Source: an uncultured Gammaproteobacteria bacterium (GTDB taxonomy: Bacteria > Patescibacteriota > Microgenomatia > Levybacterales > UBA12049). From it: a DNA stretch of 64,000 nucleotides. The notes beneath the pieces were generated by a model that ran no database searches, was not told the origin of the DNA, and saw only the letters and a list, made by a program, of their open reading frames with translations. The position numbers and the translations under genes were made by a program. This document shows positions 29,565-55,898 of the stretch, in pieces. Numbering within the stretch: position 1 is the first letter of the stretch; each line of letters begins with the position of its first letter. Location: positions 551,674 to 615,673 of the forward strand of contig CAZNAA010000001.1 of NCBI GenBank assembly GCA_964571255.1, read 5' to 3'.

Positions 29565-30788
29565 TTAGTTCAAGTACCCGTATTGAAAAATTTGTGACGT
29601 ACTATAATGATCACTAAACTTTAAATTAGCTCCATACCAAGGATCATTCATGACGTAATCCCCATTAGATCCACTTTTAAACACAATAAAATGCGTTCCA
29701 TACGGCCCTGCTTTGACCCCAATAATAACAGGTTTTCCTGCAGCTAACTTACTATCAATTGATCCCAAGTCCTTACTCCATATAGAGGTAAATCGTCCTC
29801 CACCCCAGGGAATAAGCATATAGGCAGTATCTGAGAAGAAATAGGAGTTAGTTGCAGCAACTTCTGCAGGAGTAATAGATTGACCACTTTGTTTAAGCAC
29901 CATCGCCATAGACGTTAGTAAACAACCAACTTCCCATACTTTCTCTCCACTTGCTCCAATAGTATTGTTTCCCCACCTACTATCCCGTTGATTGTAGTAC
30001 CACCCGTCAGGACTTGCTTGAGGAGGAAGGACTCCACTTCCCGATTGAGACGTAGCAAAGGACTTAAACCCACTAATTTGGGCTCGAGCTTCTTTAAGTA
30101 AAGATTGATATTTCGCCTCGTCATTTTTGGTAACTGATAGCAGAACTTGTTTACTCTTCTTCTCTTGCTCCAATTGATTGGTATAGGCAACTAGTTGAGA
30201 TTTTAAACTCTCTACTTTTTTCTTTTTTTGCTCAAAAATATCTTTTTGATTTTGATAGTCAGTTTTGGCTTGCTGCGTATCATAAATCAGTTTTTTATCA
30301 TGCTCTTGGGCCAGCTTTATATAATTTGCCCGCCTAATGAGATCTTTTGCATCTGAAGCAGCTACAAGTAAGTGAACTGGAGGAACAGTTCCTTGCTGAT
30401 ACGTAACGACAATCCGATTAAGAAGTGCTTTGGTAATATTGGTCAAAGCTTCTTCCAAGTGTTCAATCTTATCTGTTGCTACCTCAATATCTTTGGTGAG
30501 TTTTGTGATCTCAGCTTGGGTTGAATTAATCCGAAGTTGGGTAAGTCGAGTCTGACTATCCATCACAGTAATTTGTGAAGAAAGGGTTTTCCCTTGAGCT
30601 TGGGCTTCAGCAACTTTTGATTCAAGCTCTGCGATCTTTTTTTCTAATTCTTCCTTCTTCTCTCCATTCTCTTCGGGAGTAGGAGTAGCTGAGGTAGTAG
30701 GAGTAGGGGTTGCTTCTTGCGCAAAAACCGTTAGATTAAGAGAGAGAAATCCTACGAATAAGAGAAAAAAAAACAACGTTTTTTTCAT
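29565..30788 (-). CDS. Secreted coiled-coil protein with C-terminal peptidase C39-like (C39_2) cysteine peptidase domain, likely FtsEX-controlled peptidoglycan hydrolase (PcsB/EnvC analogue)
   Basis: Signal peptide, about 200 aa of heptad-rich coiled coil, then YYNQRDSRWGN...VGCLLTSMAMVL as in Peptidase_C39_2. Immediately downstream of ftsE-ftsX. Confidence 0.55.
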   Translation of the reverse strand: MKKTLFFFLLFVGFLSLNLTVFAQEATPTPTTSATPTPEENGEKKEELEKKIAELESKVAEAQAQGKTLSSQITVMDSQTRLTQLRINSTQAEITKLTKDIEVATDKIEHLEEALTNITKALLNRIVVTYQQGTVPPVHLLVAASDAKDLIRRANYIKLAQEHDKKLIYDTQQAKTDYQNQKDIFEQKKKKVESLKSQLVAYTNQLEQEKKSKQVLLSVTKNDEAKYQSLLKEARAQISGFKSFATSQSGSGVLPPQASPDGWYYNQRDSRWGNNTIGASGEKVWEVGCLLTSMAMVLKQSGQSITPAEVAATNSYFFSDTAYMLIPWGGGRFTSIWSKDLGSIDSKLAAGKPVIIGVKAGPYGTHFIVFKSGSNGDYVMNDPWYGANLKFSDHYSTSQIFQYGYLN

Positions 30789-30795
30789 ACCTGAT

Positions 30796-31659
30796 TTATT
30801 TGTTCTTTAAATACCTGTGGACTGCTAGGAGACTGGAGAACCATCCAAGAATAATAGCGCCACATAATTCAATTCCTAAGACAATGAGAAGAAAAATAGG
30901 AGAAACAGGCAAAACTGGGATGTCTCCTAGGAAGGACTTTAAAAAGGGAGTTGCATACAAAAGCATTCCTGAGGCAATTATCCAACCAATAAAAGCTCCA
31001 ATTATCCCATAAATCATTCCTTCAAGTACAAAAGGGAAGCGAATATAGGCATTCGTTGCACTCATCAGACGCATAATCTCAATTTCTTCTCTTTTTTGAG
31101 AGATTTTAATCCCAATAATAATCACCATAAGAAAAATCGAATCAAGAATTAAAACAACGCTCAATCCCCCACCTATTTTTCGTAGTGAATCAGTCCAGCG
31201 TCTCAATTTTTCAATAATATCTTGAGGAAGAATTACATTCTCAATGATTGGGGATTTTACTAATTCTGAGAAGCTCAGCAGATCATCTAGTTTTTTAGTT
31301 GAAATATCAATAGAGGCAGGCAGAGTATCAGCAGTGACAAATTCCAAAAGGAGTGGATCATTTTTAAACCAAGCAGAGTATCTTTTATACGCTTCTTCTT
31401 GAGAGACATAGGTAATAGAGGACGTTTTTCCTGTTGCTTCAAACTCTTTCATTAAGGCATCAATCTCTGCAGGTTTTGCCTCTTTTTTAAAAAAGATATT
31501 CATCTGAGGTTGCGCCTCAAAATAGGAAATGATTTGAGCAGATCCTGAAATAATAAATGCAAAAACGGAGATGACAAAGAAGGTCTGCGTCATAATAAAA
31601 ATAGCAGCAAATGCTTGATAGGGAGAGCGTCTCATGTGTTTCCACGCAGTCGCAAACAT
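30796..31659 (-). CDS. ftsX: Cell division permease-like protein FtsX
   Basis: 4 TM with a large first extracellular loop. Follows ftsE with a 1-nt overlap. Confidence 0.8.
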   Translation of the reverse strand: MFATAWKHMRRSPYQAFAAIFIMTQTFFVISVFAFIISGSAQIISYFEAQPQMNIFFKKEAKPAEIDALMKEFEATGKTSSITYVSQEEAYKRYSAWFKNDPLLLEFVTADTLPASIDISTKKLDDLLSFSELVKSPIIENVILPQDIIEKLRRWTDSLRKIGGGLSVVLILDSIFLMVIIIGIKISQKREEIEIMRLMSATNAYIRFPFVLEGMIYGIIGAFIGWIIASGMLLYATPFLKSFLGDIPVLPVSPIFLLIVLGIELCGAIILGWFSSLLAVHRYLKNK

Positions 31660-32453
31660 TATTTCTCCTCCTCCTTTTTATGCGTTTCATGCTTTTCCTC
31701 TTTTTTCTCTCCGTGCTCGTGTTTTTCCTCACTTTTCACTTCATGTTTTACTTCTGTTTTAACCTCATGTTTCTCCTCAGGCTTAGATTCTTTTTTGGTA
31801 TCTTTCATAAGCTTTCCCTTTTCTAACGTAATAACTCGTTTTACGATATTATTTACAATATCGGTATTGTGCGTTGCCATAAGAACTGTAGTACCTTTTT
31901 CATTAATATCTTGAAGTAGTTTCACAATCTCCCAAGAGGTTGCCATATCTAAATTTCCTGTTGGTTCATCAGCTAAAAGAATTTGAGGAGAAAAAACGAG
32001 TGCTCGAGCAATAGCCGCTCGTTGCAACTCACCACCAGAGAGTTGAATGGGAAATTTATCTCGGTGTTGAGAGATTCCCACCTGCTCCATTACGGCATGA
32101 ACCTTTTCTGCCGCTTCTCTTTCAGAGAGTTGGGCAATATGCAAAGGAAGAAGAATATTTTCAAAAATGGTTCGATCTGAGAGAAGTTTAAGATCTTGAA
32201 AAATAACTCCAATGTTTCGTCTAAGAGAGGGGATTTTATTTTTAGGAAGTTTAGCTAAATCCCATTCATTAACCAAAACACTCCCTGTTGAGGGGAGCAT
32301 ATCTCGAATAAGCATACGTAATAGAGTCGTTTTCCCACTTCCTGATGGTCCCACCAGAAAAAGAAACTCTCCAGGATCTACGGAGAGAGAAATACTATCT
32401 AGAGCCATTTCTCCAGTCGGGTATGCTTTTGATACGTTAACTAATTGAATCAT
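31659..32453 (-). CDS. ftsE: Cell division ATP-binding protein FtsE with a His/Lys/Glu-rich C-terminal tail
   Basis: Walker A GPSGSGKTT, ABC signature LSGGELQR, Walker B LLADEPTGNLD. Tail HEVKTEVKHEVKSEEKHEHGEKKEEKHETHKKEEEK. Confidence 0.85.
   Translation of the reverse strand: MIQLVNVSKAYPTGEMALDSISLSVDPGEFLFLVGPSGSGKTTLLRMLIRDMLPSTGSVLVNEWDLAKLPKNKIPSLRRNIGVIFQDLKLLSDRTIFENILLPLHIAQLSEREAAEKVHAVMEQVGISQHRDKFPIQLSGGELQRAAIARALVFSPQILLADEPTGNLDMATSWEIVKLLQDINEKGTTVLMATHNTDIVNNIVKRVITLEKGKLMKDTKKESKPEEKHEVKTEVKHEVKSEEKHEHGEKKEEKHETHKKEEEK
31662..31795 (-). repeat. Low-complexity, imperfectly reiterated coding repeat encoding the FtsE KE/H tail
   Basis: Reiterated catg(c/t)ttt(t/c)cctc units are visible on the plus strand. 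Confidence 0.5.
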
Positions 32454-39385: not shown

Positions 39386-40861
39386 TTACTTTAACGGATC
39401 TTTGTATAGTTGGTCTAATAAATTTAGCGCTCTTGCCTGTCCTTTTTCATCTTCTCCCTGAGTGGCAAGTAAGGCAGCCTTAAAAAGGTCCGTAGCGAGA
39501 GCAGCATTAAGACCACTTATAGAACGTTGGAGAAGGACTATACCCATTTCCCTTCGAATATTATCTAAATACATAAAAATAGCGGTCGGATTAAGTGAAG
39601 GGTATACTAGAGATAATATTCCTACTTGTGTTTCCAACTGTGCAAATATATCTCTCTTTGATACATCATCTAATTCCTTAGTAAGCCTCTTTTTTTCTCT
39701 AATAATCACAGGATTACTTTCTAAAATATCTTTTGTTGCATCGAATACTTCTTGAGAAACTGACTCTAGTGTAGTCTCTCCACTTCCCGATTTATCTTTC
39801 AAACCAAGATTTGCTACAGCTTCCCTATCTGTCTCAAACGGAGATCTATACGTACCAGCTTGCTCAGCAGTAGTTATTTTGTCTCTTAATTTACGAATGG
39901 TCTGTTGGGTTTGCTCATCCAATTCCTCAATCTCTCCTTGTGCTATATCATCTCCAGTAAGAATTGCATCAATAATTCCTCGTACGCGTGTATTCTCTTG
40001 GTATTCTTGAGTGGATACACGTAATCGTTGCTCAACTTGTTCTAAAAGCCCTCTATAATCTGCATCTAGGTGTTTTATTGTATCTTCTTGAACCGGTGTA
40101 CCAGCAAGTACTGATTGTAAAGCAATCTGAGAAGCTATTTGGGTATCTAATGATTGATCTGCCTCTTTTTTCACACTTTCTCCAGATACTACGGGTAAAG
40201 ACGCACCGGTAGGATCTTCTAATTTTGTAGAGGTAGTTCCCAATGCTTCACCTCGTTGTCTTTGTCTGTATCTTCTCTCTCTCATTTGTCGATAATAAGA
40301 AAGATTTCCTTCAACATCGCCAACTATTCTCTGCATCTTTGAATCCCTTTTCCCTGCACTTCTTAAGGCACTAAACCCAGCTATAACAGGATCTAAATCT
40401 GTCTCTACACCAGGATTAGGATTTGCTATTACTTCGTCAACTACTTCCAATAATCCCTCTCGGATAAGTCGCAAGTAGGAAAGTGATGTCGGATCAGTAA
40501 TTCCATCAGGGCCAACAATTATTCCTTCATTGTCATCTGCTGTATACGTAAATGTATCCACAACTAATTCATCAAAAGTACCATTTGAAAAATAATCTAT
40601 TATTTGAATAGTGGTAGTTGTAGGATGCTCAGATTCTTCGGGAACTCGAAAACGAACTACCCAGGTAGGAGAACTACCCGTTTCTTGCAAAAAATCAGTC
40701 ATCCTGAAAGCCATCTGAGCTATCCTATTTTGACTCTCTATCTCACTGGCATCCTTGTTTGTAGGTCTGTAGACAAAATCAGTTAGTTTTGCACCAAAAT
40801 GAGTAATATCTGCTCGTAGTCTCTCTTGCGCTACTCCTTGTTCTGATTCTTCAATATTCAT
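39386..40861 (-). CDS. Hypothetical 491-aa acidic, Q/E/R-rich protein (island gene, no recognisable domain)
   Basis: Long ORF with different composition from its neighbours. No Walker or other catalytic motif found. Confidence 0.4.
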   Translation of the reverse strand: MNIEESEQGVAQERLRADITHFGAKLTDFVYRPTNKDASEIESQNRIAQMAFRMTDFLQETGSSPTWVVRFRVPEESEHPTTTTIQIIDYFSNGTFDELVVDTFTYTADDNEGIIVGPDGITDPTSLSYLRLIREGLLEVVDEVIANPNPGVETDLDPVIAGFSALRSAGKRDSKMQRIVGDVEGNLSYYRQMRERRYRQRQRGEALGTTSTKLEDPTGASLPVVSGESVKKEADQSLDTQIASQIALQSVLAGTPVQEDTIKHLDADYRGLLEQVEQRLRVSTQEYQENTRVRGIIDAILTGDDIAQGEIEELDEQTQQTIRKLRDKITTAEQAGTYRSPFETDREAVANLGLKDKSGSGETTLESVSQEVFDATKDILESNPVIIREKKRLTKELDDVSKRDIFAQLETQVGILSLVYPSLNPTAIFMYLDNIRREMGIVLLQRSISGLNAALATDLFKAALLATQGEDEKGQARALNLLDQLYKDPLK

Positions 40862-40926
40862 ACTATAAGCGTATGAAAATACTTACTTCTTGTCAACAAA
40901 AATACAACTATGTACACTACATATGT

Positions 40927-43212
40927 ATGGATAAAGATCGTCCAGCAATAACAACTGCAGCCGATAGAGCAACCCAAGTGGCTCAAGAAGGAGGCCTTGT
41001 ACCTCGTAGTCGTCAACCTCTTCCCACGAATCTGCCTGCTTCTAATGCCACAGAAGGAGATAATGATACTGCAAATACTAGATCAGAACCTATACCTACC
41101 AAAGCTTCCCCTGAACCGAGAGGATTAGGTAGCAACGTAGCTGCTTGGTGGAGCAGAAGAAATAATCAAAGACAAGAAGCAGAACAACCCGAAAGGAGAG
41201 CTCCTAACCCACCACTTCCTGAAGATCCAACTCATACCATAGGAGGGAGTAGATATGTAGACTTAAACGCACCAGCTGGACCTCTTGTAATAGCTGAAAG
41301 AGCTAGAGCACAAGCGGACGTAGATAGAGCATTAGCAGACATACAGGCTCGAGCAGGAACTGTAGAACAACATACAGGAGGAGCAATATATCAACCAGTA
41401 ATACCTGAGACAAGGGACGATCCTCAAGGAGGAGGAAATAATCAAGATAAAGGAAGAAGCACTACTGATAAAATTATACCTTTTCTTGCAGAACATAAAG
41501 GGAAATTCTTTTTTGTAGGAAGTGGTCTCATTTTAGGAGCATTCGCAAGAGCCGCCAATGTAGATCCTGACATTTTGAGAGGCTCTATTCGAATAGCTGC
41601 AGGAGCAGGAGGAGCAATAGGTGCTTCAGGACTAGGAGAATATGTGTCTCATTGGATAAATAGTAAAGCTACTGACGGCTCAAGACTAGATAGACTCTCA
41701 AGAATGAGTGAAAAAGGACTTGGTCGCTTGAGACAAGCATCTATGATGGGTGCATTAGCAGCAGGAGGAGTTGCAACGGAAGAGTTTTTAAGTGATCCTA
41801 ATCGAGCAATAGAGGCATTACAACAAGTTCCAGCTGAGTTAGGAGGAGCTATTGCACATCCTATAGACACTCTTGAAGAAACATGGGACAATTTAACAGA
41901 TGCACTTACCCCAGAAGCACCTACTAAAGTTCCTGCCGCTACTCCTACAGCTCCAGGCGTAACTCCAACCGTTCCAGAAACTCCAACTGTTACAGCGACT
42001 ATTACTCCTGATACCGGATTAACATCTTTAGGAACGCCTACACCATCAGGAACTCCTACTGCAGCCGCTACTCCCACATCAACTGTAACTAGTACACCTA
42101 CTATTATTGCATCTCCTTCACCTTCTGCCACCCCTGGGACTGGAAGTTCTACCCCTAGTACTCTTCCTCCTATTATAGACAACCCACCAGGAGGAGATCC
42201 TGGAACCGGAAGTTCTCTCCCTGGTACTCTTCCTCCTATTGTAGATAACCCACCAGGAGGAGATCCTGGAACTGGGGGGAGTCAAACGCAGATTCAGCCA
42301 GTAAATCATATCGATCCAGATAGAGGATGGAGAGAAAGAGGGCCAGGATTTAGTGATTTACCTGAAAACAAGATAGATATTACTCCTGAATATGATTTCG
42401 TCATCAATGGAAATCGAGTTAAAGGGAATTTGGATACTCTCACCTTTAATGATAATAGATGGGTCATATTCGAAAACGGAGAGAAAAACGTTAATCTCTT
42501 GAAGCAAAACCATGAAATCGAGGGATATCATATAAATCCTACTCGTTTGAAAGAAGAATTATATCCAACGCTTGGGTTATATGGTGATAAGGAACTAATT
42601 CCAGGGAGTTTTGAATATAAACTTTTTCATTTTGCCAACGGAACTGGAACTGAATTCCAAGACATTTTTGAAGATCCAGAGTTTGAAATGGATCTAAAAA
42701 ATAGAGGCATTCTAGAAATAGATAGACCTGATCCTACAACTATTGTGCTAGAAGAACCAGTAATTCCAAATCATGTGGATGTTGATAAAGGATATATAGA
42801 AAAACCATCTGGATATAACGATGATCTTGCAGTTAGCCCTGAAACAGAGCCATATCATAAACAACTTGATGTAATTGCTCCTTATGGAGGAAATAAAATT
42901 ACAGGCTCTATTTTTGATGGAACACTGAAATTTGGTGAAAAAGACTGGATTATTTTTGAAAATGGACAAAGACATATTGAGGAAATAACAACTTTACAAA
43001 ACTTTACTGAACCATATTATATTGATGAGGAAAGATATAAAGAAGAACTAGAAAAGCTTATTGTTCTGTGGTCAAAAGGAGAGTTAAAAAATCCGGAAGA
43101 TCAAAAAGTTTTCTATCTATCCGATGGTGTACCAGGTGAATATGATAAGCTTAAAAGAGATCCTGCAATTATTCAAACACTGAAAGACAGAGGTATTATA
43201 AAAACTAGGTAA
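40927..43212 (+). CDS. Large membrane-anchored protein (about 760 aa): Pro-rich cytoplasmic N-terminus, Gly-zipper TM segments, extracellular PT linker, 2x22-aa tandem repeat, duplicated C-terminal WxIFENG-containing domain
   Basis: Start at second M (ICMDKD) preferred, giving 762 aa (the ORF-track start at 40873 gives 779 aa). FFFVGSGLILGAFARAANV and IRIAAGAGGAIGASGLG hydrophobic segments. PTxPT linker. Repeats PGTGSS(T/L)P(S/G)TLPPI(I/V)DNPPGGD x2. NRWVIFENGEKN... and KDWIIFENGQRH... duplicated modules. Confidence 0.5.
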   Translation: MDKDRPAITTAADRATQVAQEGGLVPRSRQPLPTNLPASNATEGDNDTANTRSEPIPTKASPEPRGLGSNVAAWWSRRNNQRQEAEQPERRAPNPPLPEDPTHTIGGSRYVDLNAPAGPLVIAERARAQADVDRALADIQARAGTVEQHTGGAIYQPVIPETRDDPQGGGNNQDKGRSTTDKIIPFLAEHKGKFFFVGSGLILGAFARAANVDPDILRGSIRIAAGAGGAIGASGLGEYVSHWINSKATDGSRLDRLSRMSEKGLGRLRQASMMGALAAGGVATEEFLSDPNRAIEALQQVPAELGGAIAHPIDTLEETWDNLTDALTPEAPTKVPAATPTAPGVTPTVPETPTVTATITPDTGLTSLGTPTPSGTPTAAATPTSTVTSTPTIIASPSPSATPGTGSSTPSTLPPIIDNPPGGDPGTGSSLPGTLPPIVDNPPGGDPGTGGSQTQIQPVNHIDPDRGWRERGPGFSDLPENKIDITPEYDFVINGNRVKGNLDTLTFNDNRWVIFENGEKNVNLLKQNHEIEGYHINPTRLKEELYPTLGLYGDKELIPGSFEYKLFHFANGTGTEFQDIFEDPEFEMDLKNRGILEIDRPDPTTIVLEEPVIPNHVDVDKGYIEKPSGYNDDLAVSPETEPYHKQLDVIAPYGGNKITGSIFDGTLKFGEKDWIIFENGQRHIEEITTLQNFTEPYYIDEERYKEELEKLIVLWSKGELKNPEDQKVFYLSDGVPGEYDKLKRDPAIIQTLKDRGIIKTR
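42133..42279 (+). repeat. 66-nt in-frame tandem repeat (2 full copies plus a partial third)
   Basis: cctggga/accggaagttct...cttcctcctatt(a/g)tagacaacccaccaggaggagat repeated at 42133-42198 and 42199-42264, with a partial copy to 42279. Confidence 0.8.
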
Positions 43213-43215
43213 CTT

Positions 43216-43530
43216 ATGCAACAAGACGTCTTTACTCAATTTATTACTAAGCTAAAAGAAGAAAAAAGTGAAGAACAAATCACGAAACTTTTGGCTGCTT
43301 TGTATCAATTTCAGGCAGAAGCATTGTATGAAATTATGCTTGAGGTATTAACTGATCAGGATTTTCAAGCAATTGAAAAGATTGAAGATGACGATGAAGC
43401 AGAGCAAGAGATAAACAGATTATTTAAAGAAAGAACTCAACTGACTCCTCAAGAGTTTGTCGTTAAGCTTCGAGATACGCTTTCTCAAACCTATTTAGAT
43501 AATCAACCTCCGAAAAAATCTACAGCTTAA
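43216..43530 (+). CDS. Small acidic helical protein (104 aa), translationally coupled to the large upstream gene
   Basis: ATG 3 nt after the upstream TAA. D/E-rich (EKIEDDDEAEQEINRLF). Confidence 0.4.
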   Translation: MQQDVFTQFITKLKEEKSEEQITKLLAALYQFQAEALYEIMLEVLTDQDFQAIEKIEDDDEAEQEINRLFKERTQLTPQEFVVKLRDTLSQTYLDNQPPKKSTA

Positions 43531-43572: not shown

Positions 43573-44298
43573 TTAAGATACTGGTTTTTTGGTAATAAAA
43601 TCCCAAGAGGGCCCAATGTATACATCGCCTATTGTTACCTGAACAGGATCTTTTGCAAGTGTATGACGAAGGTTAATAAGCTCTCTTATATAATTTTCTC
43701 GAGTAGCGGGATCGAGTTGAGAGGGTAGTTCAACAATACGACCTAGTGTCATATGTAATATGTGTATAGGCAAAGGCCTCATACCAATTGCTTCATATTT
43801 TTCCGATAAATTTCTTCTTACCTCTACAATTTGCTCGGGTATGACATCTGCTGCTACCGTTACGTTACTTTGCGTTTCTTGACCACTTTTACTCTGACCT
43901 ACTAACAAATACTTATACACCAGCTCCGTACCTGCAAGTGCACCTATCAAATCTTGGGCAGAAAGATCTGTTGTAAGATCTGTGAAATCCGATTGCATTG
44001 TTTCTTTATCACCTTCTGGATATTCGCCTTCTTGAAGAGTTGTGTGCAACCCAATATCTCGACCAGCTAAAAGAAATTCTATGCCATATCTGCTTGCAAC
44101 TTGGGCCATAGATTCTATAAGCCTTTCTTGTACTTTAGCCGTGGAGACTGCATCAGGAATACCAAACACACTGAATCGTCTTTGGAAACGCTCAGGAAAT
44201 TCACTAAATCTTTGTATTTGTTCTGTTCTGAAAGCACGTCTTCCTCCACTATTTAATGAGGCAAGTTCTCTTAATAATGAAGGGTTTTCTACTGTCAT
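43573..44298 (-). CDS. 2H phosphoesterase superfamily protein (LigT/2',5'-RNA ligase/cyclic phosphodiesterase-like)
   Basis: Two H-x-T-x motifs about 90 residues apart: GLHTTLQEG and ILHMTLGRI. Confidence 0.5.
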   Translation of the reverse strand: MTVENPSLLRELASLNSGGRRAFRTEQIQRFSEFPERFQRRFSVFGIPDAVSTAKVQERLIESMAQVASRYGIEFLLAGRDIGLHTTLQEGEYPEGDKETMQSDFTDLTTDLSAQDLIGALAGTELVYKYLLVGQSKSGQETQSNVTVAADVIPEQIVEVRRNLSEKYEAIGMRPLPIHILHMTLGRIVELPSQLDPATRENYIRELINLRHTLAKDPVQVTIGDVYIGPSWDFITKKPVS

Positions 44299-44372
44299 AC
44301 CGGGATTATAGCATTAGGAGGAGATTATTGTCATTTTAAGAAAGATTCAGGTAATGACACTTTTCCCATTAT

Positions 44373-44401
44373 TTGACATTTTGTCAACTTCGTACTTAAA
44401 T
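44373..44401 (+). promoter_or_regulatory. Promoter-like element with a perfect palindrome TTGACAtttTGTCAA upstream of the HNH gene
   Basis: TTGACA (44373-44378), 17-nt spacer, TTAAAT, then 8 nt to the ATG with no SD. The 6-3-6 inverted repeat overlaps the -35. Confidence 0.35.
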
Positions 44402-44409
44402 AAAGATAT

Positions 44410-45024
44410 ATGACTCGTACCAGAGGTAAGAGATTTAAAAGAGATTACTCTAATAAAGATCTTATTGACTACCTAAATAGTATCTATAAAGAACTAGGTC
44501 GATCCCCAACATCTAGAGACCTACAACAATTTCCAGGACCTGCACCTCGAACAATAATAAGAAGATTCGAAAGTTGGACCAAGGCATTAAAAAAGGCCAA
44601 TATTCGACCACAAACTCATCAAATATTACCAAAAGAAGGAACATTTATTAGAAGAAACTGGAAACAGATGACTGATGAACAGATATCCCATACTTTAGGT
44701 ATTAGTATTCATATTATTAAATATTATCGTATGAATTTGGATTTATGGAAAAATAGAAAAGGCACAGCAAGAGCAACTTTCAGAAAAAAAGCATTTAATA
44801 TATATGGTAAAAACTGTGAATCATGTAATCTATCTATCTGTGAATGGCATCATATCATTCCTAAATCAACTGATCCACAAAGTTGGTGTATTTTATGTCC
44901 AACATGTCACGCAGTTATTACTCGCAAACTAATTAGTATAAATTCCAGAGAGGAGATAAAGAGCAAACTGAAACCTTTTATTAAGAATCTTTATCAGATG
45001 ATTAATTTTGGATCCGATGTTTAG
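44410..45024 (+). CDS. Free-standing HNH (homing-type) endonuclease
   Basis: C-terminal HNH/Zn motif CESCNLSICEWHHIIPKSTDPQSWCILCPTCHAVI. N-terminal RRFESWTKAL motif seen in phage/homing HNH proteins. 3' end overlaps the secA stop by 23 nt (convergent). Confidence 0.7.
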   Translation: MTRTRGKRFKRDYSNKDLIDYLNSIYKELGRSPTSRDLQQFPGPAPRTIIRRFESWTKALKKANIRPQTHQILPKEGTFIRRNWKQMTDEQISHTLGISIHIIKYYRMNLDLWKNRKGTARATFRKKAFNIYGKNCESCNLSICEWHHIIPKSTDPQSWCILCPTCHAVITRKLISINSREEIKSKLKPFIKNLYQMINFGSDV

Positions 45025-50449: not shown

Positions 50450-52108
50450 ATGACTAGCTTTTTCCACAAAGGACTCTCTCTTCTTCTAAAACGACAAACC
50501 ACAATTCTCTCCGCTGCATTTATCATTATGACCACTGTTATTTTCTCCCACATCTTAGGGCTTATCAAACAACGCCTTTTAGTAAGTATTTTTGGTGTCT
50601 CAACAGAATTAGGTATTTTTGAATATGCTTCTCTACTTCCTGAAACAGTATTTCAGTTAACGATTGCCGCCGCTCTCTCTAGTGCATTTATTCCTGTTTT
50701 TACCGACTATTTGGCAAAAGATAAAGAAAAAGAAGGACACAAGATGGCTTCCACTCTCCTTTTATGTGGCGTTCTGCTCTTCTCTCTTGTTTCACTTATT
50801 CTGATGATATTTGCACCTTTTTTCCTTTCCCTCTTTTTTAATTCAGGAAATAGATTTACTCCTGATCAAATAATTCTTATGAGTAATTTGATGAGGGTTT
50901 TTATTCTGGGACAAATGATTTTTGTGATTGGAACGTTTTTCTCAGCCCTGCTTCAGTCATATAATCAATTCTTTGTTCCAGGAATTGCCTTAGCTCTCTA
51001 TAACTTGGGAATTATTATTGGTGTATTTTTCTTCTCCCCTTTTGTTGGCATTTTCTCAGCTCCTATTGGTGTCATTATTGGTGCGTGTCTTTTTCTTCTC
51101 ACCCAAATTCCGAGTGCTCGGAACTTGGGATTCTCTTTTCTTCCTAGTTTCCATCAAGAAGTAATAGAGGGAATTAAAAAAATTGCTGTTCTTATGTGGC
51201 CCCGAACTCTTTCTTTAGTTATTTTTCAAATTGGAACTATTTCTATTGCCTTTTTTATCTCTTATTTGGCAGAACCCGGGCGAAGTATTAATATTTATAA
51301 TCTTGCCAAAACTCTCGCATTTGCTCCCGTTGCTCTTTTTGGACAAACCATTGCTCAAGCAGCCTTCCCCGTTTTATCTAGAGAAAAAAATAATATTTCT
51401 GCTTTTAAACAAACCTTTCTTGCTAGCTTTAATCACATGCTGTATATCATTTTACCAATTGCCGTTTTGGTACTAGTTCTTCGAATCCCGATTGTTCGCT
51501 TAGTATATGGGGCGGATAAAGTAGATTGGATGGCAACCGTTTCCATTGGAAGAACCCTTGCCTGTTTTAGTATTTCTATAGTGGCCCAAGCACTTATTGC
51601 TCTAACTCTTCGAGCCTTTTATGCTAGACACAATACCAAAGTGCCTCTCATTGTTGGAGGAATTTCAACCATTTTTATGGTGATTCTTGTTTCTCTTTTC
51701 GTAACAGTGTATCACTTTGGAGTTGAGAGTTTAGCAGTCGCTTTTACTTTGGGAACTTTAGTCCAACTAGGAATTCTTCTTTTTATTCTGGATAAACAAC
51801 TGGGGGGATTTGATAAGAAAAAACAGTTATCTGTTATGATCAAATTCTTCTTTATCTCAACTGCTACTGCATTTGCGTTGTATATTCCCATTAAACTCCT
51901 TGATCAATTAGTCTTTGATACCACTCGTACTATTAATCTTGTTTTTCTGACAGGAATTTCCAGTATGATTGGTCTTTCCATTTATCTATTCCTTAGTCGC
52001 TATTTAGAGATAGAGGAAGCACGAGTGTACTTGGAAACGATAAAGAGGGTGAAGAATATTAAAGAATTTTTGTATAAAGGTCCTGAAACCATTGAAGGAA
52101 AGATTTAA
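50450..52108 (+). CDS. murJ: Lipid II flippase MurJ (MviN)
   Basis: 14-TM MOP-family profile. N-terminal LGLIKQRLLVSIFGVSTELGIFEYASLLPETVFQLTIAAALSSAFIPVF. Confidence 0.75.
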   Translation: MTSFFHKGLSLLLKRQTTILSAAFIIMTTVIFSHILGLIKQRLLVSIFGVSTELGIFEYASLLPETVFQLTIAAALSSAFIPVFTDYLAKDKEKEGHKMASTLLLCGVLLFSLVSLILMIFAPFFLSLFFNSGNRFTPDQIILMSNLMRVFILGQMIFVIGTFFSALLQSYNQFFVPGIALALYNLGIIIGVFFFSPFVGIFSAPIGVIIGACLFLLTQIPSARNLGFSFLPSFHQEVIEGIKKIAVLMWPRTLSLVIFQIGTISIAFFISYLAEPGRSINIYNLAKTLAFAPVALFGQTIAQAAFPVLSREKNNISAFKQTFLASFNHMLYIILPIAVLVLVLRIPIVRLVYGADKVDWMATVSIGRTLACFSISIVAQALIALTLRAFYARHNTKVPLIVGGISTIFMVILVSLFVTVYHFGVESLAVAFTLGTLVQLGILLFILDKQLGGFDKKKQLSVMIKFFFISTATAFALYIPIKLLDQLVFDTTRTINLVFLTGISSMIGLSIYLFLSRYLEIEEARVYLETIKRVKNIKEFLYKGPETIEGKI

Positions 52109-54695: not shown

Positions 54696-55898
54696 ATGAA
54701 TTTTAATGGAAGAAAATTATTACTTCTTGGATTTATTATCGTTCTTCTTGTAGGAATTCCGGCTACTCTTTTTTTAGTACAACAACAGCAAGAGACTCGG
54801 TCTCGAGCTGAAAAATCAACTACTCTTTCGATTACCCCAGAATCTACCTCAAAAGAGGTAGGACAAGCTGTTCCTTTGGACATTATGGTAAATCCAGGAA
54901 CCAACCTTGTTTCCTTTGTGAAATTAGAAATTACGTACGACGAAACCAAACTTTCTATTAATGAAAGTACTGGATTTGTTCCAAATGCAGGAGCTTTCCC
55001 TATTACCGTTGAAGGACCTGCTTTTACTCCAGGAAAGATTTTAGTTTCTCTCTCCATTGGAGCAAATACGACAGCTGCTATTAGTAATATAACTAAGGTT
55101 GGTACACTCAACTTTACTACCCTTGAAACAACGAGTGGTGGAACAACAACCGTTGGGCTTGGTCCACAAACACAAGTACTCTCAGCTGGTGCCAATGATC
55201 AAGCTAGTGAAGATACTCTCTCAACAACTGTTCCTGCTCGAGTAACAATTGGAGGATCTCCTGTTATTACTCCGTCAACTACAGTAACTCCATCATTTAC
55301 TCCAACTCCTACTGTCACTACAGCACCTAATTCTCCCACAGCTACTCCGACAACACCTCCCACGTTGACTCCAACTCCTACGTTGATTCCAACACCTACA
55401 TCTACACAAAGTGCTTCTACACCTAATCAACCACCTGTATGTAGTGCACTTAATCTAGATCGAGGGACAACAGGTACAGCTCCTTATTCTCTTACTTTTA
55501 CTGCTTTAGGAAATGATACCGACGGAACAATTACTCAAGCCAGCTTTAACTTTGGGGATGGACCAGTAACAAACGTCTCAACCGGAGGAGGCATTGGAAG
55601 CAAGTCAATTAATACTCAAATTGCTCATACGTATAATAATGCTGGAACCTATACTGCCTATGCTATTCTTACTGATAATAGCGGAGCAGTGAGTAATTTT
55701 AACACCTGTAAAACAACCATTACGGTAAACAGCGGAACTGGAGGATCTGGCTCAACAAGTGGAGGATCTTCTACTGGATCGACAGCGACTACTGCACCTA
55801 CTATTGCCCCAACTGGTCCAAGTACCGTACTTGTTAGTGCAGGAGCAGTCCTTGGAGCACTCTCTCTGATTGGAGCTTTCGTCTTCTTCCTTCTCTAA
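54696..55898 (+). CDS. Cell-surface protein: signal/TM, cohesin-like beta domain, PT linker, PKD domain, C-terminal hydrophobic anchor
   Basis: PTPTxxPT linker. PKD motifs FNFGDGPV...HTYNNAGTYTAYAILTDNSGA. C-terminal VLVSAGAVLGALSLIGAFVFFLL. Confidence 0.55.
   Translation: MNFNGRKLLLLGFIIVLLVGIPATLFLVQQQQETRSRAEKSTTLSITPESTSKEVGQAVPLDIMVNPGTNLVSFVKLEITYDETKLSINESTGFVPNAGAFPITVEGPAFTPGKILVSLSIGANTTAAISNITKVGTLNFTTLETTSGGTTTVGLGPQTQVLSAGANDQASEDTLSTTVPARVTIGGSPVITPSTTVTPSFTPTPTVTTAPNSPTATPTTPPTLTPTPTLIPTPTSTQSASTPNQPPVCSALNLDRGTTGTAPYSLTFTALGNDTDGTITQASFNFGDGPVTNVSTGGGIGSKSINTQIAHTYNNAGTYTAYAILTDNSGAVSNFNTCKTTITVNSGTGGSGSTSGGSSTGSTATTAPTIAPTGPSTVLVSAGAVLGALSLIGAFVFFLL

What the first reader, a model, noticed from the sequence alone, without database searches (positions are those of the whole stretch)
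40927..43530. Two-gene module: membrane-anchored repeat protein with duplicated WxIFENG domains, plus a small acidic protein 3 nt downstream
The large protein has no N-terminal signal peptide. It has a Pro-rich hydrophilic N-terminal region, then Gly-zipper hydrophobic segments, a PT-rich linker, two perfect 22-aa repeats and a C-terminal region made of two homologous modules (NRWVIFENGEKN... and KDWIIFENGQRH...). A 104-aa D/E-rich helical protein starts 3 nt after its stop. This layout resembles adhesin/chaperone or toxin/immunity pairs. A candidate host-attachment protein would be plausible if the organism is an episymbiont. I could not match any domain by eye.
Basis: seen in the sequence. 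Interest (0 to 1): 0.6.

Follow-up and report, generated by a model that had tools for sequence, protein, structure and literature searches.

The report
Conserved membrane-stalk protein plus small partner
This is a real two-gene operon found only in a few ultra-small (CPR, Daviesbacteria-like) bacteria: it encodes a membrane-anchored protein that probably holds one or two copies of a previously undescribed helical domain outside the cell on a Pro/Thr-rich stalk, and a tightly conserved small acidic helical protein, and the function of both is unknown.

Summary
The 761-aa ORF (40927-43212) is intact. It has a hydrophilic N-terminus, Gly/Ala-rich hydrophobic segments, a P/T linker and two homologous C-terminal modules (31% identity, E=1e-19). 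A 104-aa acidic ORF starts 3 nt after its stop. The 22-aa repeats are 19/22 identical, not perfect.

An exhaustive profile search of 1.84 billion proteins found 31 relatives. They share the order: variable N-terminus, three-segment anchor, P/T/A-rich linker, C-terminal ~110-aa domain. In 11 of 12 loci reached through the large protein, a 104-116-aa acidic ORF starts 0-16 nt downstream. So the refutation test fails and the pair is conserved.

Neither protein matches Pfam, NCBIfam, PADLOC or PDB sequences. Confident AF2 models (pLDDT 95.6 and 84) have no Foldseek match in PDB; the domain model has none in BFVD either.

The small gene is as constrained as secA (dN/dS 0.046). The large gene evolves fast (0.315; N-terminus 0.77). 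Charge distribution across the family favours N-in, C-out.

The toxin/immunity reading is not supported. The C-domain is the conserved part, it has no catalytic-type invariant residues, and the small gene does not diversify.

Best reading: a surface-displayed binding or sensing domain with a cytoplasmic partner. The ligand and the role are unknown.

The parts
40927..43212 (+). Large gene (761 aa plus stop). An in-frame ATG at 40873 would give 779 aa, as called in public annotations.
   Evidence: ORF list. Start supported by alignment to P0001. Identical product in an independent assembly. Overall dN/dS 0.315 against L001.
40927..41493 (+). N-terminal hydrophilic, Pro/Arg/Ala-rich region (aa 1-189), probably disordered and cytoplasmic. 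It is the fastest-evolving part.
   Evidence: Composition and hydropathy. 50% identity and dN/dS 0.77 (computed on aa 1-165) against L001. Length and sequence are not conserved across the family.
41494..41793 (+). Gly/Ala-rich membrane anchor (aa 190-289), in three parts: a putative helical hairpin (about aa 190-243, with a DPD turn), a basic loop (about aa 245-270), and a third weakly hydrophobic segment (about aa 271-289).
   Evidence: Kyte-Doolittle maxima. The same three-part layout is seen in most family members, and the charge census supports N-in/C-out. Anchor dN/dS 0.22. The number of true membrane spans is not proven.
41917..42291 (+). Pro/Thr-rich linker ('stalk', aa 331-455).
   Evidence: 21% Pro and 20% Thr. 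A P/T/S/A-rich stretch lies between anchor and C-domain in most relatives.
42133..42272 (+). 66-bp tandem repeat, 2.1 copies, encoding two imperfect 22-aa units (19/22 identical).
   Evidence: TRF. The relative P0001 has a single unit.
42292..42762 (+). C-terminal module 1 (aa 456-612): an NHxDxDxGWxExxxGFxD lead-in followed by core domain copy 1 (aa 493-599, nt 42403-42723).
   Evidence: Internal duplication E=1e-19. Local HMM domain hits. dN/dS 0.15.
42763..43209 (+). C-terminal module 2 (aa 613-761): the same lead-in followed by core domain copy 2 (aa 648-761, nt 42868-43209).
   Evidence: AF2 model of aa 648-761: pLDDT 95.6, pTM 0.87, short N-terminal strands plus five helices. No PDB or BFVD fold match.
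43216..43530 (+). Small gene: 104-aa acidic (net -10) six-helix protein with no signal peptide. The 3-nt gap suggests it is translationally coupled.
   Evidence: 95% identical in L001, with dN/dS 0.046 at dS 0.73. Homologs sit directly downstream of the large gene in L003, L009 and L011 at 38-52% identity. AF2 pLDDT 84. No PDB fold match.

Best explanation
This is a lineage-restricted two-gene operon. All named homologs are from Candidatus Daviesbacteria, in the Microgenomates group of the CPR/Patescibacteria.

The large protein, shown or strongly supported:
- Its N-terminus is variable and hydrophilic.
- A conserved Gly/Ala-rich three-segment anchor follows: a hairpin, a basic loop and a third segment.
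- A Pro/Thr-rich spacer follows the anchor.
- It ends in a novel ~110-aa, mostly alpha-helical domain. There are two copies in the window; most relatives have one, at the extreme C-terminus.

Inferred from the positive-inside rule across the family: the N-terminus and the basic loop face the cytoplasm. The stalk and the C-terminal domain(s) are outside the membrane, held away from it across the wall.

The domain's invariant and near-invariant positions are hydrophobic-core and turn residues (Gly, Leu, Trp, Phe and two Asn-Gly turns). The polar positions that could be catalytic, the His of FHLSNGT and the acidic residue before NG, are substituted in several members. I therefore take it to be a binding or structural module, not an enzyme.

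The small acidic helical protein has no export signal. It evolves as slowly as secA. It comes in two sequence types. In the loci inspected, type A goes with a G..R[FYW]L/KHP-motif anchor and type B with a REY..RQ/RGAAFGAVGG-motif anchor. I infer that it is a cytoplasmic partner docking on the basic cytoplasmic face of the anchor, either as an assembly or stabilising factor or as the intracellular output of the surface domain.

The ligand is not identified. Candidates are the organism's own wall or S-layer, a host surface, or a polymer.
For: - Real genes: the ORFs are intact and are reproduced in an independent assembly. The small gene has dN/dS 0.046 at dS 0.73, against 0.06 for secA.
- Family: a profile search of 1.84 billion representatives gave 31 hits at E<=1e-3 and 12 at E<=1e-10. 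The domain is C-terminal in nearly all of them.
- Shared architecture across the family.
- Duplication: 31% identity, E=1e-19. P0015 also has two copies.
- Pair conservation: a 104-116-aa acidic ORF starts 0-16 nt after the stop, mostly as TAAnATG, in WIN, L001-L009, L011 and L012. That is 11 of 12 loci.
- Reciprocal search from the small protein recovered the C-domain gene upstream in L014 (the same sequence as L008), L015 and L017.
- The pair is the only gene neighbourhood conserved across these loci.
- Novelty of both proteins: no Pfam, NCBIfam, PADLOC or PDB-sequence hit. Confident AF2 models have no Foldseek match.
- Topology: over 30 members, the N-flank has K+R 106 against D+E 78, the loop 245 against 175, and the stretch after the third segment 56 against 109.
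- Non-enzymatic conservation pattern.
- The anchor motifs that go with each small-protein type were read by eye from the sequences.
Against: - Topology is inferred from hydropathy and charge only; no dedicated predictor was available. In the window protein only one segment is clearly hydrophobic (KD about 1.66). The second and third are Gly/Ala-rich and marginal (about 1.0).
- If only the hairpin spans the membrane, the whole C-terminal part would be cytoplasmic, as in ZipA. The small protein could then bind the C-domain directly.
- Homology between the two small-protein types is only suggestive: hhalign E=0.003 with probability about 10%, and one bridging BLAST hit at E=1e-5.
- No interaction was modelled.
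- One member (P0042, L010) lacks the small gene. One small gene (L016) follows a different ORF.
- Gene neighbours are inconsistent. Class A PBP, LytR-CpsA-Psr, M23 peptidase, PP2C and GH5 each occur in only a few loci. Context therefore gives no functional anchor.
Confidence: 0.45

Rival explanations
1. Cytoplasmic scaffold of the ZipA type. Only the Gly/Ala hairpin enters the membrane (N-in, C-in). The P/T linker and the helical C-domain(s) are then cytoplasmic, and the small acidic protein is the direct ligand or regulator of the C-domain, for example in cell-envelope or division machinery.
For: - The second and third hydrophobic segments of the window protein are marginal (KD about 1.0).
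- The small protein has no export signal, and tight coupling (0-16 nt gaps) suggests a stoichiometric complex in one compartment.
- Flexible P-rich linkers do occur in cytoplasmic membrane tethers such as ZipA and FtsK (my own knowledge).
- Cell-wall and division genes lie nearby in several loci: class A PBP in L004, L006 and L009; M23 peptidase in L011; FtsEX and MurJ in the window.
Against: - Across the family the third segment is usually clearly hydrophobic (maxima 1.5-1.9), and the stretch after it is acid-rich while the preceding loop is K/R-rich. This fits a third span with the C-terminus outside.
- Thr-rich PT linkers are more typical of extracytoplasmic proteins (my own knowledge).
- The C-domain and the small protein are both acidic (and my count).
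- The PBP neighbours come from only two independent contexts.
Confidence: 0.2
2. Transmembrane sensor with a cytoplasmic effector, an anti-sigma/RsgI-like logic. The external helical domain senses a ligand. The anchor transmits the signal, and the small acidic protein is released or sequestered as the intracellular output.
For: - The layout (cytoplasmic N-part, membrane span(s), PT linker, C-terminal external domain) is the same as in RsgI anti-sigma factors (my own knowledge).
- The small protein is under extreme constraint, which fits a partner that must also bind conserved cellular machinery.
- PP2C-type phosphatase genes lie directly upstream in L003 and L012, and there is a weak kinase-like hit in L005.
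Against: - There is no RsgI_N, zf-HC2, sigma-factor, HTH, STAS or kinase domain in either protein or in a conserved neighbour.
- The cytoplasmic N-terminus is not conserved across the family and is nearly neutral in evolution (dN/dS 0.77).
- The small protein has no DNA-binding or sigma-like fold match.
Confidence: 0.15
3. Toxin/immunity (polymorphic-toxin-like) pair: the C-terminal domain is a delivered toxin and the small protein is its immunity factor.
For: The gene order (a large protein with a C-terminal domain followed immediately by a small acidic protein) resembles toxin-immunity cassettes. Pfam gave a noise-level EntA_Immun hit (E=0.028, below its cut-off).
Against: - The C-domain is the conserved part and the N-terminus the variable part, which is the reverse of polymorphic toxins.
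- The domain is tandemly duplicated in some members.
- No catalytic-type residue is conserved.
- No secretion or trafficking domain is present.
- The small gene has dN/dS 0.046 and does not co-diversify; module 2 has dN/dS 0.25.
- There is no PADLOC hit and no toxin fold match.
Confidence: 0.04

Closest known systems
RsgI-type membrane anti-sigma factors (Clostridium thermocellum SigI/RsgI)
   Same: Overall layout: a cytoplasmic N-terminal part, a membrane span, a Pro/Thr-rich linker and a C-terminal extracytoplasmic ligand-binding domain. The gene is co-transcribed with a small cytoplasmic partner gene.
   Different: There is no RsgI_N anti-sigma domain and no adjacent sigma-factor gene. The partner gene is downstream and encodes an acidic six-helix protein with no known fold match. 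The anchor has three Gly/Ala-rich segments, not one TM. The C-domain is a new helical fold, not a CBM.
ZipA-like membrane tethers (TM anchor, P/Q-rich linker, C-terminal globular binding domain)
   Same: A membrane anchor followed by a long flexible Pro-rich linker and a small globular C-terminal domain that would bind a partner.
   Different: ZipA has a single N-terminal TM and is entirely cytoplasmic beyond it. Here a long hydrophilic N-terminus precedes the anchor, and the charge bias favours an external C-terminus. There is no sequence or fold similarity.
Polymorphic toxin / immunity cassettes
   Same: A large multi-domain protein whose C-terminal domain is followed within a few nucleotides by a small acidic protein gene.
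   Different: The conservation pattern is reversed: the C-domain is conserved and the N-terminus variable. No trafficking domain is present, no catalytic-type residue is conserved, and the small gene is under strong purifying selection.
Glycine-zipper membrane proteins (Pfam Gly-zipper_Omp / Gly-zipper_YMGG / Rick_17kDa_Anti type)
   Same: Gly/Ala-rich GxxxG-like hydrophobic segments arranged as a short hairpin.
   Different: No HMM match to any of these families. The anchor here has its own conserved motifs: G..R[FYW]L and KHP in the window type, REY..RQ and RGAAFGAVGG in the Daviesbacteria type (read).

Membership tests
Polymorphic toxin-immunity system | An N-terminal secretion or trafficking domain (LXG, RHS/YD, PT-TG, WXG100, a Sec/TPS signal and the like) | tested here: not met
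   No Pfam or NCBIfam domain in the window protein or in 20 further full-length homologs. The N-terminus is hydrophilic and has no signal peptide.
Polymorphic toxin-immunity system | A variable C-terminal toxin domain on a conserved N-terminal scaffold | tested here: not met
   The reverse is seen. The ~110-aa C-domain is the shared element of all 31 relatives, and the N-termini are unrelated and range from about 40 to 950 aa.
Polymorphic toxin-immunity system | An immunity gene that co-diversifies with the toxin domain | tested here: not met
   Small gene dN/dS 0.046, against 0.15-0.25 for the C-modules.
RsgI-type anti-sigma factor | An N-terminal RsgI_N / anti-sigma domain and a cognate sigma-factor gene adjacent | tested here: not met
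   No such Pfam hit. No sigma-factor gene is conserved beside the pair.
Gram-positive wall-anchored or S-layer surface proteins | An N-terminal Sec signal peptide plus an LPXTG sortase motif, SLH, CWB2, GW or LysM wall-binding modules | tested here: not met
   No signal peptide. The C-terminus ends ...KDRGIIKTR with no LPXTG motif or hydrophobic tail. No SLH, CWB, GW or LysM HMM hits.
Glycine-zipper membrane protein families (Pfam) | A match to the Gly-zipper_Omp, Gly-zipper_YMGG or Rick_17kDa_Anti profiles | tested here: not met
   No hit, even at E<=1 for the window protein.
The new family defined here (anchor, stalk, C-terminal helical domain, plus small partner) | A C-terminal ~110-aa domain with the pattern G.V.GS..D..L.[YF]...W.[LI]..NG.KN ... 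LW..G.L ... [LF]FH.SNGT ... L..LGI | tested here: met
   Both window modules match the family HMM, at E=3e-30 and 2e-32.
The new family defined here (anchor, stalk, C-terminal helical domain, plus small partner) | A 104-116-aa acidic helical ORF directly downstream on the same strand | tested here: met
   Window 43216-43530, 3-nt gap. The same arrangement is seen in 11 of 12 loci.
The new family defined here (anchor, stalk, C-terminal helical domain, plus small partner) | N-in / C-out topology with the C-domain outside the membrane | tested here: inconclusive
   Hydropathy and the positive-inside census favour it. Two of the three window segments are only marginally hydrophobic, and no dedicated predictor or experiment was available.

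The most novel reading that the evidence does not exclude
The pair is a CPR-specific surface-contact device. The new helical domain, held out on a P/T stalk, recognises a host or partner cell-surface structure. The invariant small cytoplasmic protein couples that contact to the inside of the cell. If so, it would be a previously unknown attachment or sensing system for the episymbiotic lifestyle of Microgenomates-group bacteria, built from two folds with no solved relative.
Probability: 0.15. Interest if true: 0.75.

Novelty: new variant of a known kind. Interest (0 to 1): 0.42.

Why it matters
Microgenomates-group CPR bacteria have no cultured representative and almost no characterised surface proteins. 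This module is a rare, lineage-restricted operon that is nonetheless conserved: 31 clusters among 1.84 billion representatives.

Its layout is familiar: anchor, stalk, external domain. Both the domain and the partner protein are new at the sequence level and, as far as Foldseek against the PDB can tell, at the fold level.

The outward-facing protein evolves fast and varies in repeat copy number between close relatives, while the partner is frozen. That is the pattern expected for a molecule at the interface between the cell and its environment or host.

It gives a concrete, small, expressible target (a 110-aa domain with pLDDT 95.6) for binding screens and structural work on how these organisms contact their surroundings. 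It is still one of many uncharacterised CPR families, and no function is demonstrated.

Tried and rejected
- Word-indexed homolog searches largely failed. The whole protein returned only P0001. The C-terminal region and the 34-domain alignment returned nothing. For the window protein itself the cause is probably that its 90% cluster is represented by a 56-aa low-complexity fragment. The exhaustive HMM search was what found the family.
- Pfam, NCBIfam, PADLOC and PDB-sequence scans of both proteins, of the 34 domain sequences and of 20 further full-length homologs gave only sub-threshold noise, for example NUC153, ETC_C1_NDUFA5, EntA_Immun and FliS.
- A LysM-like look of an insert in P0017 and of the L016 upstream ORF was not confirmed by HMM.
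- I looked for a conserved third gene. Only subfamily-local unknown proteins recur, and nothing is shared across all loci. PBP, LytR, M23, PP2C and GH5 neighbours are sporadic.
- The metagenome scan with the window-type small protein found nothing. The 34-domain alignment and the six-sequence small-protein alignment were too diverse for pattern scans.
- Homology between the two small-protein types remains only suggestive.
- Rfam found no RNA element in the window.
- The antisense ORFs within the PT-linker region (for example 41649-42182 on the minus strand) are treated as shadows of the biased coding sequence.
Full report
**1. What is in the sequence**

The + strand carries one uninterrupted ORF, 40873..43212. 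A second ORF, 43216..43530, follows it after 3 nt.

This is the better start:
- The only close homolog, P0001, begins MDNKDRPAITT at the first ATG after a stop.
- A weak promoter-like site at 40890-40918 would lie inside the longer version.

The identical 779-aa product is also called on an independent Logan assembly of SRR8893622. It is also on record on an NCBI contig of 772,860 bp. The ORF is therefore not broken or created by errors in the repeat.

Composition and hydropathy confirm the described layout:
- aa 1-189: hydrophilic, rich in Pro, Arg and Ala, with no signal peptide.
- aa 190-289: Gly/Ala-rich hydrophobic segments.
- aa 290-330: an acidic juxtamembrane stretch.
- aa 331-455: a linker that is 21% Pro and 20% Thr.

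The '22-aa perfect repeats' are a 66-bp tandem repeat at 42133-42272 with 2.1 copies and 90% matches. The peptide units are 19/22 identical. P0001 has one unit, so copy number varies between relatives.

The two C-terminal modules, aa 456-612 and 613-761, are truly homologous: 31% identity, E=1e-19.

The small protein is 104 aa with net charge -10.

**2. A family exists and the pair is conserved**

Word-indexed searches found only P0001, at 59% identity, and otherwise failed. For the window protein itself, a probable cause is that its 90% cluster is represented by a 56-aa fragment.

An exhaustive HMMER search used a profile of the four modules from the window and P0001, against 1.84 billion representatives. 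It found 31 proteins at E<=1e-3 and 12 at E<=1e-10. The conserved unit is about 110 aa and sits at the extreme C-terminus in nearly all of them. P0015 has two clear copies, as the window protein does. P0042 has a weak second match at E=0.32.

The full sequences share one architecture:
- an unrelated N-terminus of very variable length;
- a cluster of Gly/Ala-rich hydrophobic segments;
- a linker rich in Pro, Thr, Ser and Ala;
- the domain itself.

The 34-sequence domain alignment has these conserved positions:
- invariant G13, L20 and L73;
- near-invariant W27, N32-G33, L61, L67, F82 and N86-G87.

These are hydrophobic-core and turn residues. The candidate polar positions (the His in FHLSNGT and the acid before NG) are substituted in several members. 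This argues for a binding or structural domain, not an enzyme.

Genomic contexts were read for 12 loci reached through the large protein: WIN, L001-L005 and L009-L012 by exact look-up, and L006-L008 from GTDB genomes.

In 11 of the 12, a 104-116-aa acidic ORF (net charge -8 to -13) starts 0-16 nt after the stop. The junction is usually TAAnATG. The exception is P0042 in L010, a weak member in a different-looking genome context.

The small proteins fall into two types:
- Type A (WIN, L001, L003, L009, L011): 38-52% identical to the window protein among the distant members, with BLAST E of about 1e-24.
- Type B (L002, L004-L008, L012).

The two types align collinearly with one 9-residue indel. 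Statistical support for a link is only suggestive: a bridging BLAST hit between L003 and L007 at E=1e-5, and hhalign E=0.003 with probability about 10%.

A reciprocal search from the type-B small protein gave the following:
- The C-domain gene lay directly upstream in L014 (the same sequence as L008), L015 and L017.
- L016 had a different upstream ORF.
- L015 had a tandem second small gene.

No other neighbour is conserved across the family.

It is therefore not met, and the module is real.

Named records are Candidatus Daviesbacteria from groundwater (L007, L008). One MAG is labelled 'uncultured Gammaproteobacteria', although its neighbouring genes match the unnamed relative L004, with NusG at 83% identity.

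**3. Selection**

The window was compared with L001, a close relative with complete synteny and dS of about 0.6-0.8.

| Gene or region | dN/dS |
|---|---|
| Nramp | 0.02 |
| secA | 0.06 |
| transketolase | 0.07 |
| small gene | 0.046 |
| large gene, overall | 0.315 |
| large gene, N-terminus | 0.77 |
| large gene, anchor | 0.22 |
| large gene, linker | 0.36 |
| large gene, module 1 | 0.15 |
| large gene, module 2 | 0.25 |
| divergently transcribed upstream 491-aa gene | 0.52 |

The small protein is a real gene under housekeeping-grade constraint. The large protein, and above all its N-terminus, changes quickly. It also gains and loses short repeats: the 22-aa unit here, and in P0001 three extra copies (five in all) of the ~35-aa 'GY.EK.SGFNDDPAV.PE' lead-in.

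**4. Structure and database comparison**

AF2 on module 2 (aa 648-761) with the 34-sequence alignment gave pLDDT 95.6 and pTM 0.87. The model has short N-terminal strands and five helices.

AF2 on the small protein with 13 sequences gave pLDDT 84 and pTM 0.71. The model has six helices and a disordered tail.

Pfam, NCBIfam, PADLOC and PDB-sequence searches gave no family for either protein. They also gave none for the 34 domain sequences or for 20 further full-length homologs.

**5. Topology (inferred)**

Most members show three features in order:
- a 45-58-aa hydrophobic stretch, long enough for a helical hairpin;
- a K/R-rich loop;
- a third hydrophobic segment of about 25 aa.

Charges summed over 30 members:

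| Region | K+R | D+E |
|---|---|---|
| 20 aa before the hairpin | 106 | 78 |
| loop | 245 | 175 |
| 30 aa after the third segment | 56 | 109 |

By the positive-inside rule this gives N-in, loop-in and C-out.

In the window protein the loop (aa 245-270) has 7 K/R against 3 D/E. The stretch after aa 289 has 11 D/E and 1 R (my count). Its second and third segments are only marginally hydrophobic, so a two-span, C-in topology cannot be excluded.

**6. Mechanism**

Best supported (confidence about 0.45): the large protein is a membrane-anchored stalk protein that displays one or two copies of a new helical binding domain outside the cell.

The small acidic protein stays in the cytoplasm. It docks on the basic cytoplasmic face of the anchor, as an assembly factor or as the intracellular side of the device. 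The docking step is inference. It rests on three points:
- the small protein has no export signal;
- its charge complements that of the basic loop;
- in the loci inspected, the small-protein type matches the anchor type (type A with G..R[FYW]L/KHP anchors, type B with REY..RQ/RGAAFGAVGG anchors), as read.

Rivals:
- A ZipA-like cytoplasmic tether in which the small protein binds the C-domain (0.2).
- An RsgI-like sensor with a cytoplasmic effector (0.15). PP2C genes lie directly upstream in L003 and L012, but there are no sigma or anti-sigma features.
- A toxin/immunity pair (0.04). This is contradicted by the reversed conservation pattern, the domain duplication, the lack of conserved catalytic-type residues, the lack of trafficking domains, and the frozen small gene.

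**7. Novelty and verdict**

The layout (anchor, P/T stalk, C-terminal domain, with a small co-transcribed partner) is a known kind of bacterial envelope protein organisation. The domain, the anchor motifs, the partner protein and their strict pairing are undescribed and restricted to a small CPR group. I rate it a new variant of a known kind, and moderately interesting.

It is a clean, testable, lineage-specific module at the probable cell surface of uncultured ultra-small bacteria. It has no demonstrated function, and it is one of many uncharacterised CPR families.

Noticed in passing
window 43573-45024: Compared with the syntenic relative L001, the window carries two extra genes. In L001 the small gene abuts the 3' end of secA. 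The extra genes are a 241-aa LigT-like 2H-phosphoesterase candidate on the minus strand (43573-44298; Pfam LigT_PEase E=2.6e-4, below its cut-off) and a 204-aa HNH_repeat/HNH homing-endonuclease-like gene on the plus strand (44410-45024; HNH_repeat E=1e-14). The second overlaps the end of secA by 23 nt. This looks like a small mobile insertion.
   Followed up: partly
window 39386-40861 (-): The divergently transcribed upstream gene (491 aa, 65-nt intergenic gap, no TM, no family hit) is also fast-evolving against L001: 53-54% identity by BLASTP, dN/dS 0.52, with large indels. All other neighbours are 84-98% identical. It has no homolog beside the pair in other loci, so it may be a local partner or merely another rapidly evolving orphan.
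   Followed up: partly
L001 10001-12589 (P0001 aa 605-715): The close homolog carries five copies of a ~35-aa lead-in motif (GY.EK.SGFNDDPAV.PE...), three of them between its two modules, where the window protein has one copy per module. It has only one copy of the 22-aa PGTGSS...PPGGD unit. Repeat copy number therefore varies in both directions between close relatives.
   Followed up: partly
L006 (CAZVEX010000003.1): This MAG is titled 'uncultured Gammaproteobacteria bacterium' but carries the module. Its neighbouring genes match those of the unnamed relative L004: NusG at 83% identity and a class A PBP at 62%. The label is probably a binning or taxonomy error.
   Followed up: no
L015 472-1156: Two tandem copies of the type-B small gene follow the C-domain gene (109 aa and 121 aa, overlapping by 11 nt).
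   Followed up: no
L016 1205-2025: Here a type-B small gene follows a 162-aa ORF that lacks the C-domain, with a P-rich 348-aa ORF just upstream. This may be a frameshifted or domain-swapped relative of the large protein.
   Followed up: no
window 41649-42182 (-) and L001 10537-11106 (-): A long antisense ORF (177 aa, Gly/Val-rich) lies opposite the PT-linker and is 'conserved' at 81% in L001. I interpret it as a shadow of the biased coding strand, not as a gene.
   Followed up: partly
window 40873-43212 (protein-collection behaviour): In the 90%-identity protein collection, the window's 779-aa protein is clustered under a 56-aa fragment as representative. This probably explains why a word-indexed search cannot return the window protein itself. 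It is a caveat for low-complexity, PT-rich proteins.
   Followed up: yes
window 29565-32453 and 50450-52108: Cell-envelope and division genes lie near the module: FtsX (30796-31659) and, by synteny with L001, FtsE (31659-32453); also MurJ (50450-52108). A PKD-domain protein is at 54696-55898. The secA-prfB-ftsEX arrangement common in Gram-positives appears to be interrupted here by about 11 kb that includes the module.
   Followed up: no
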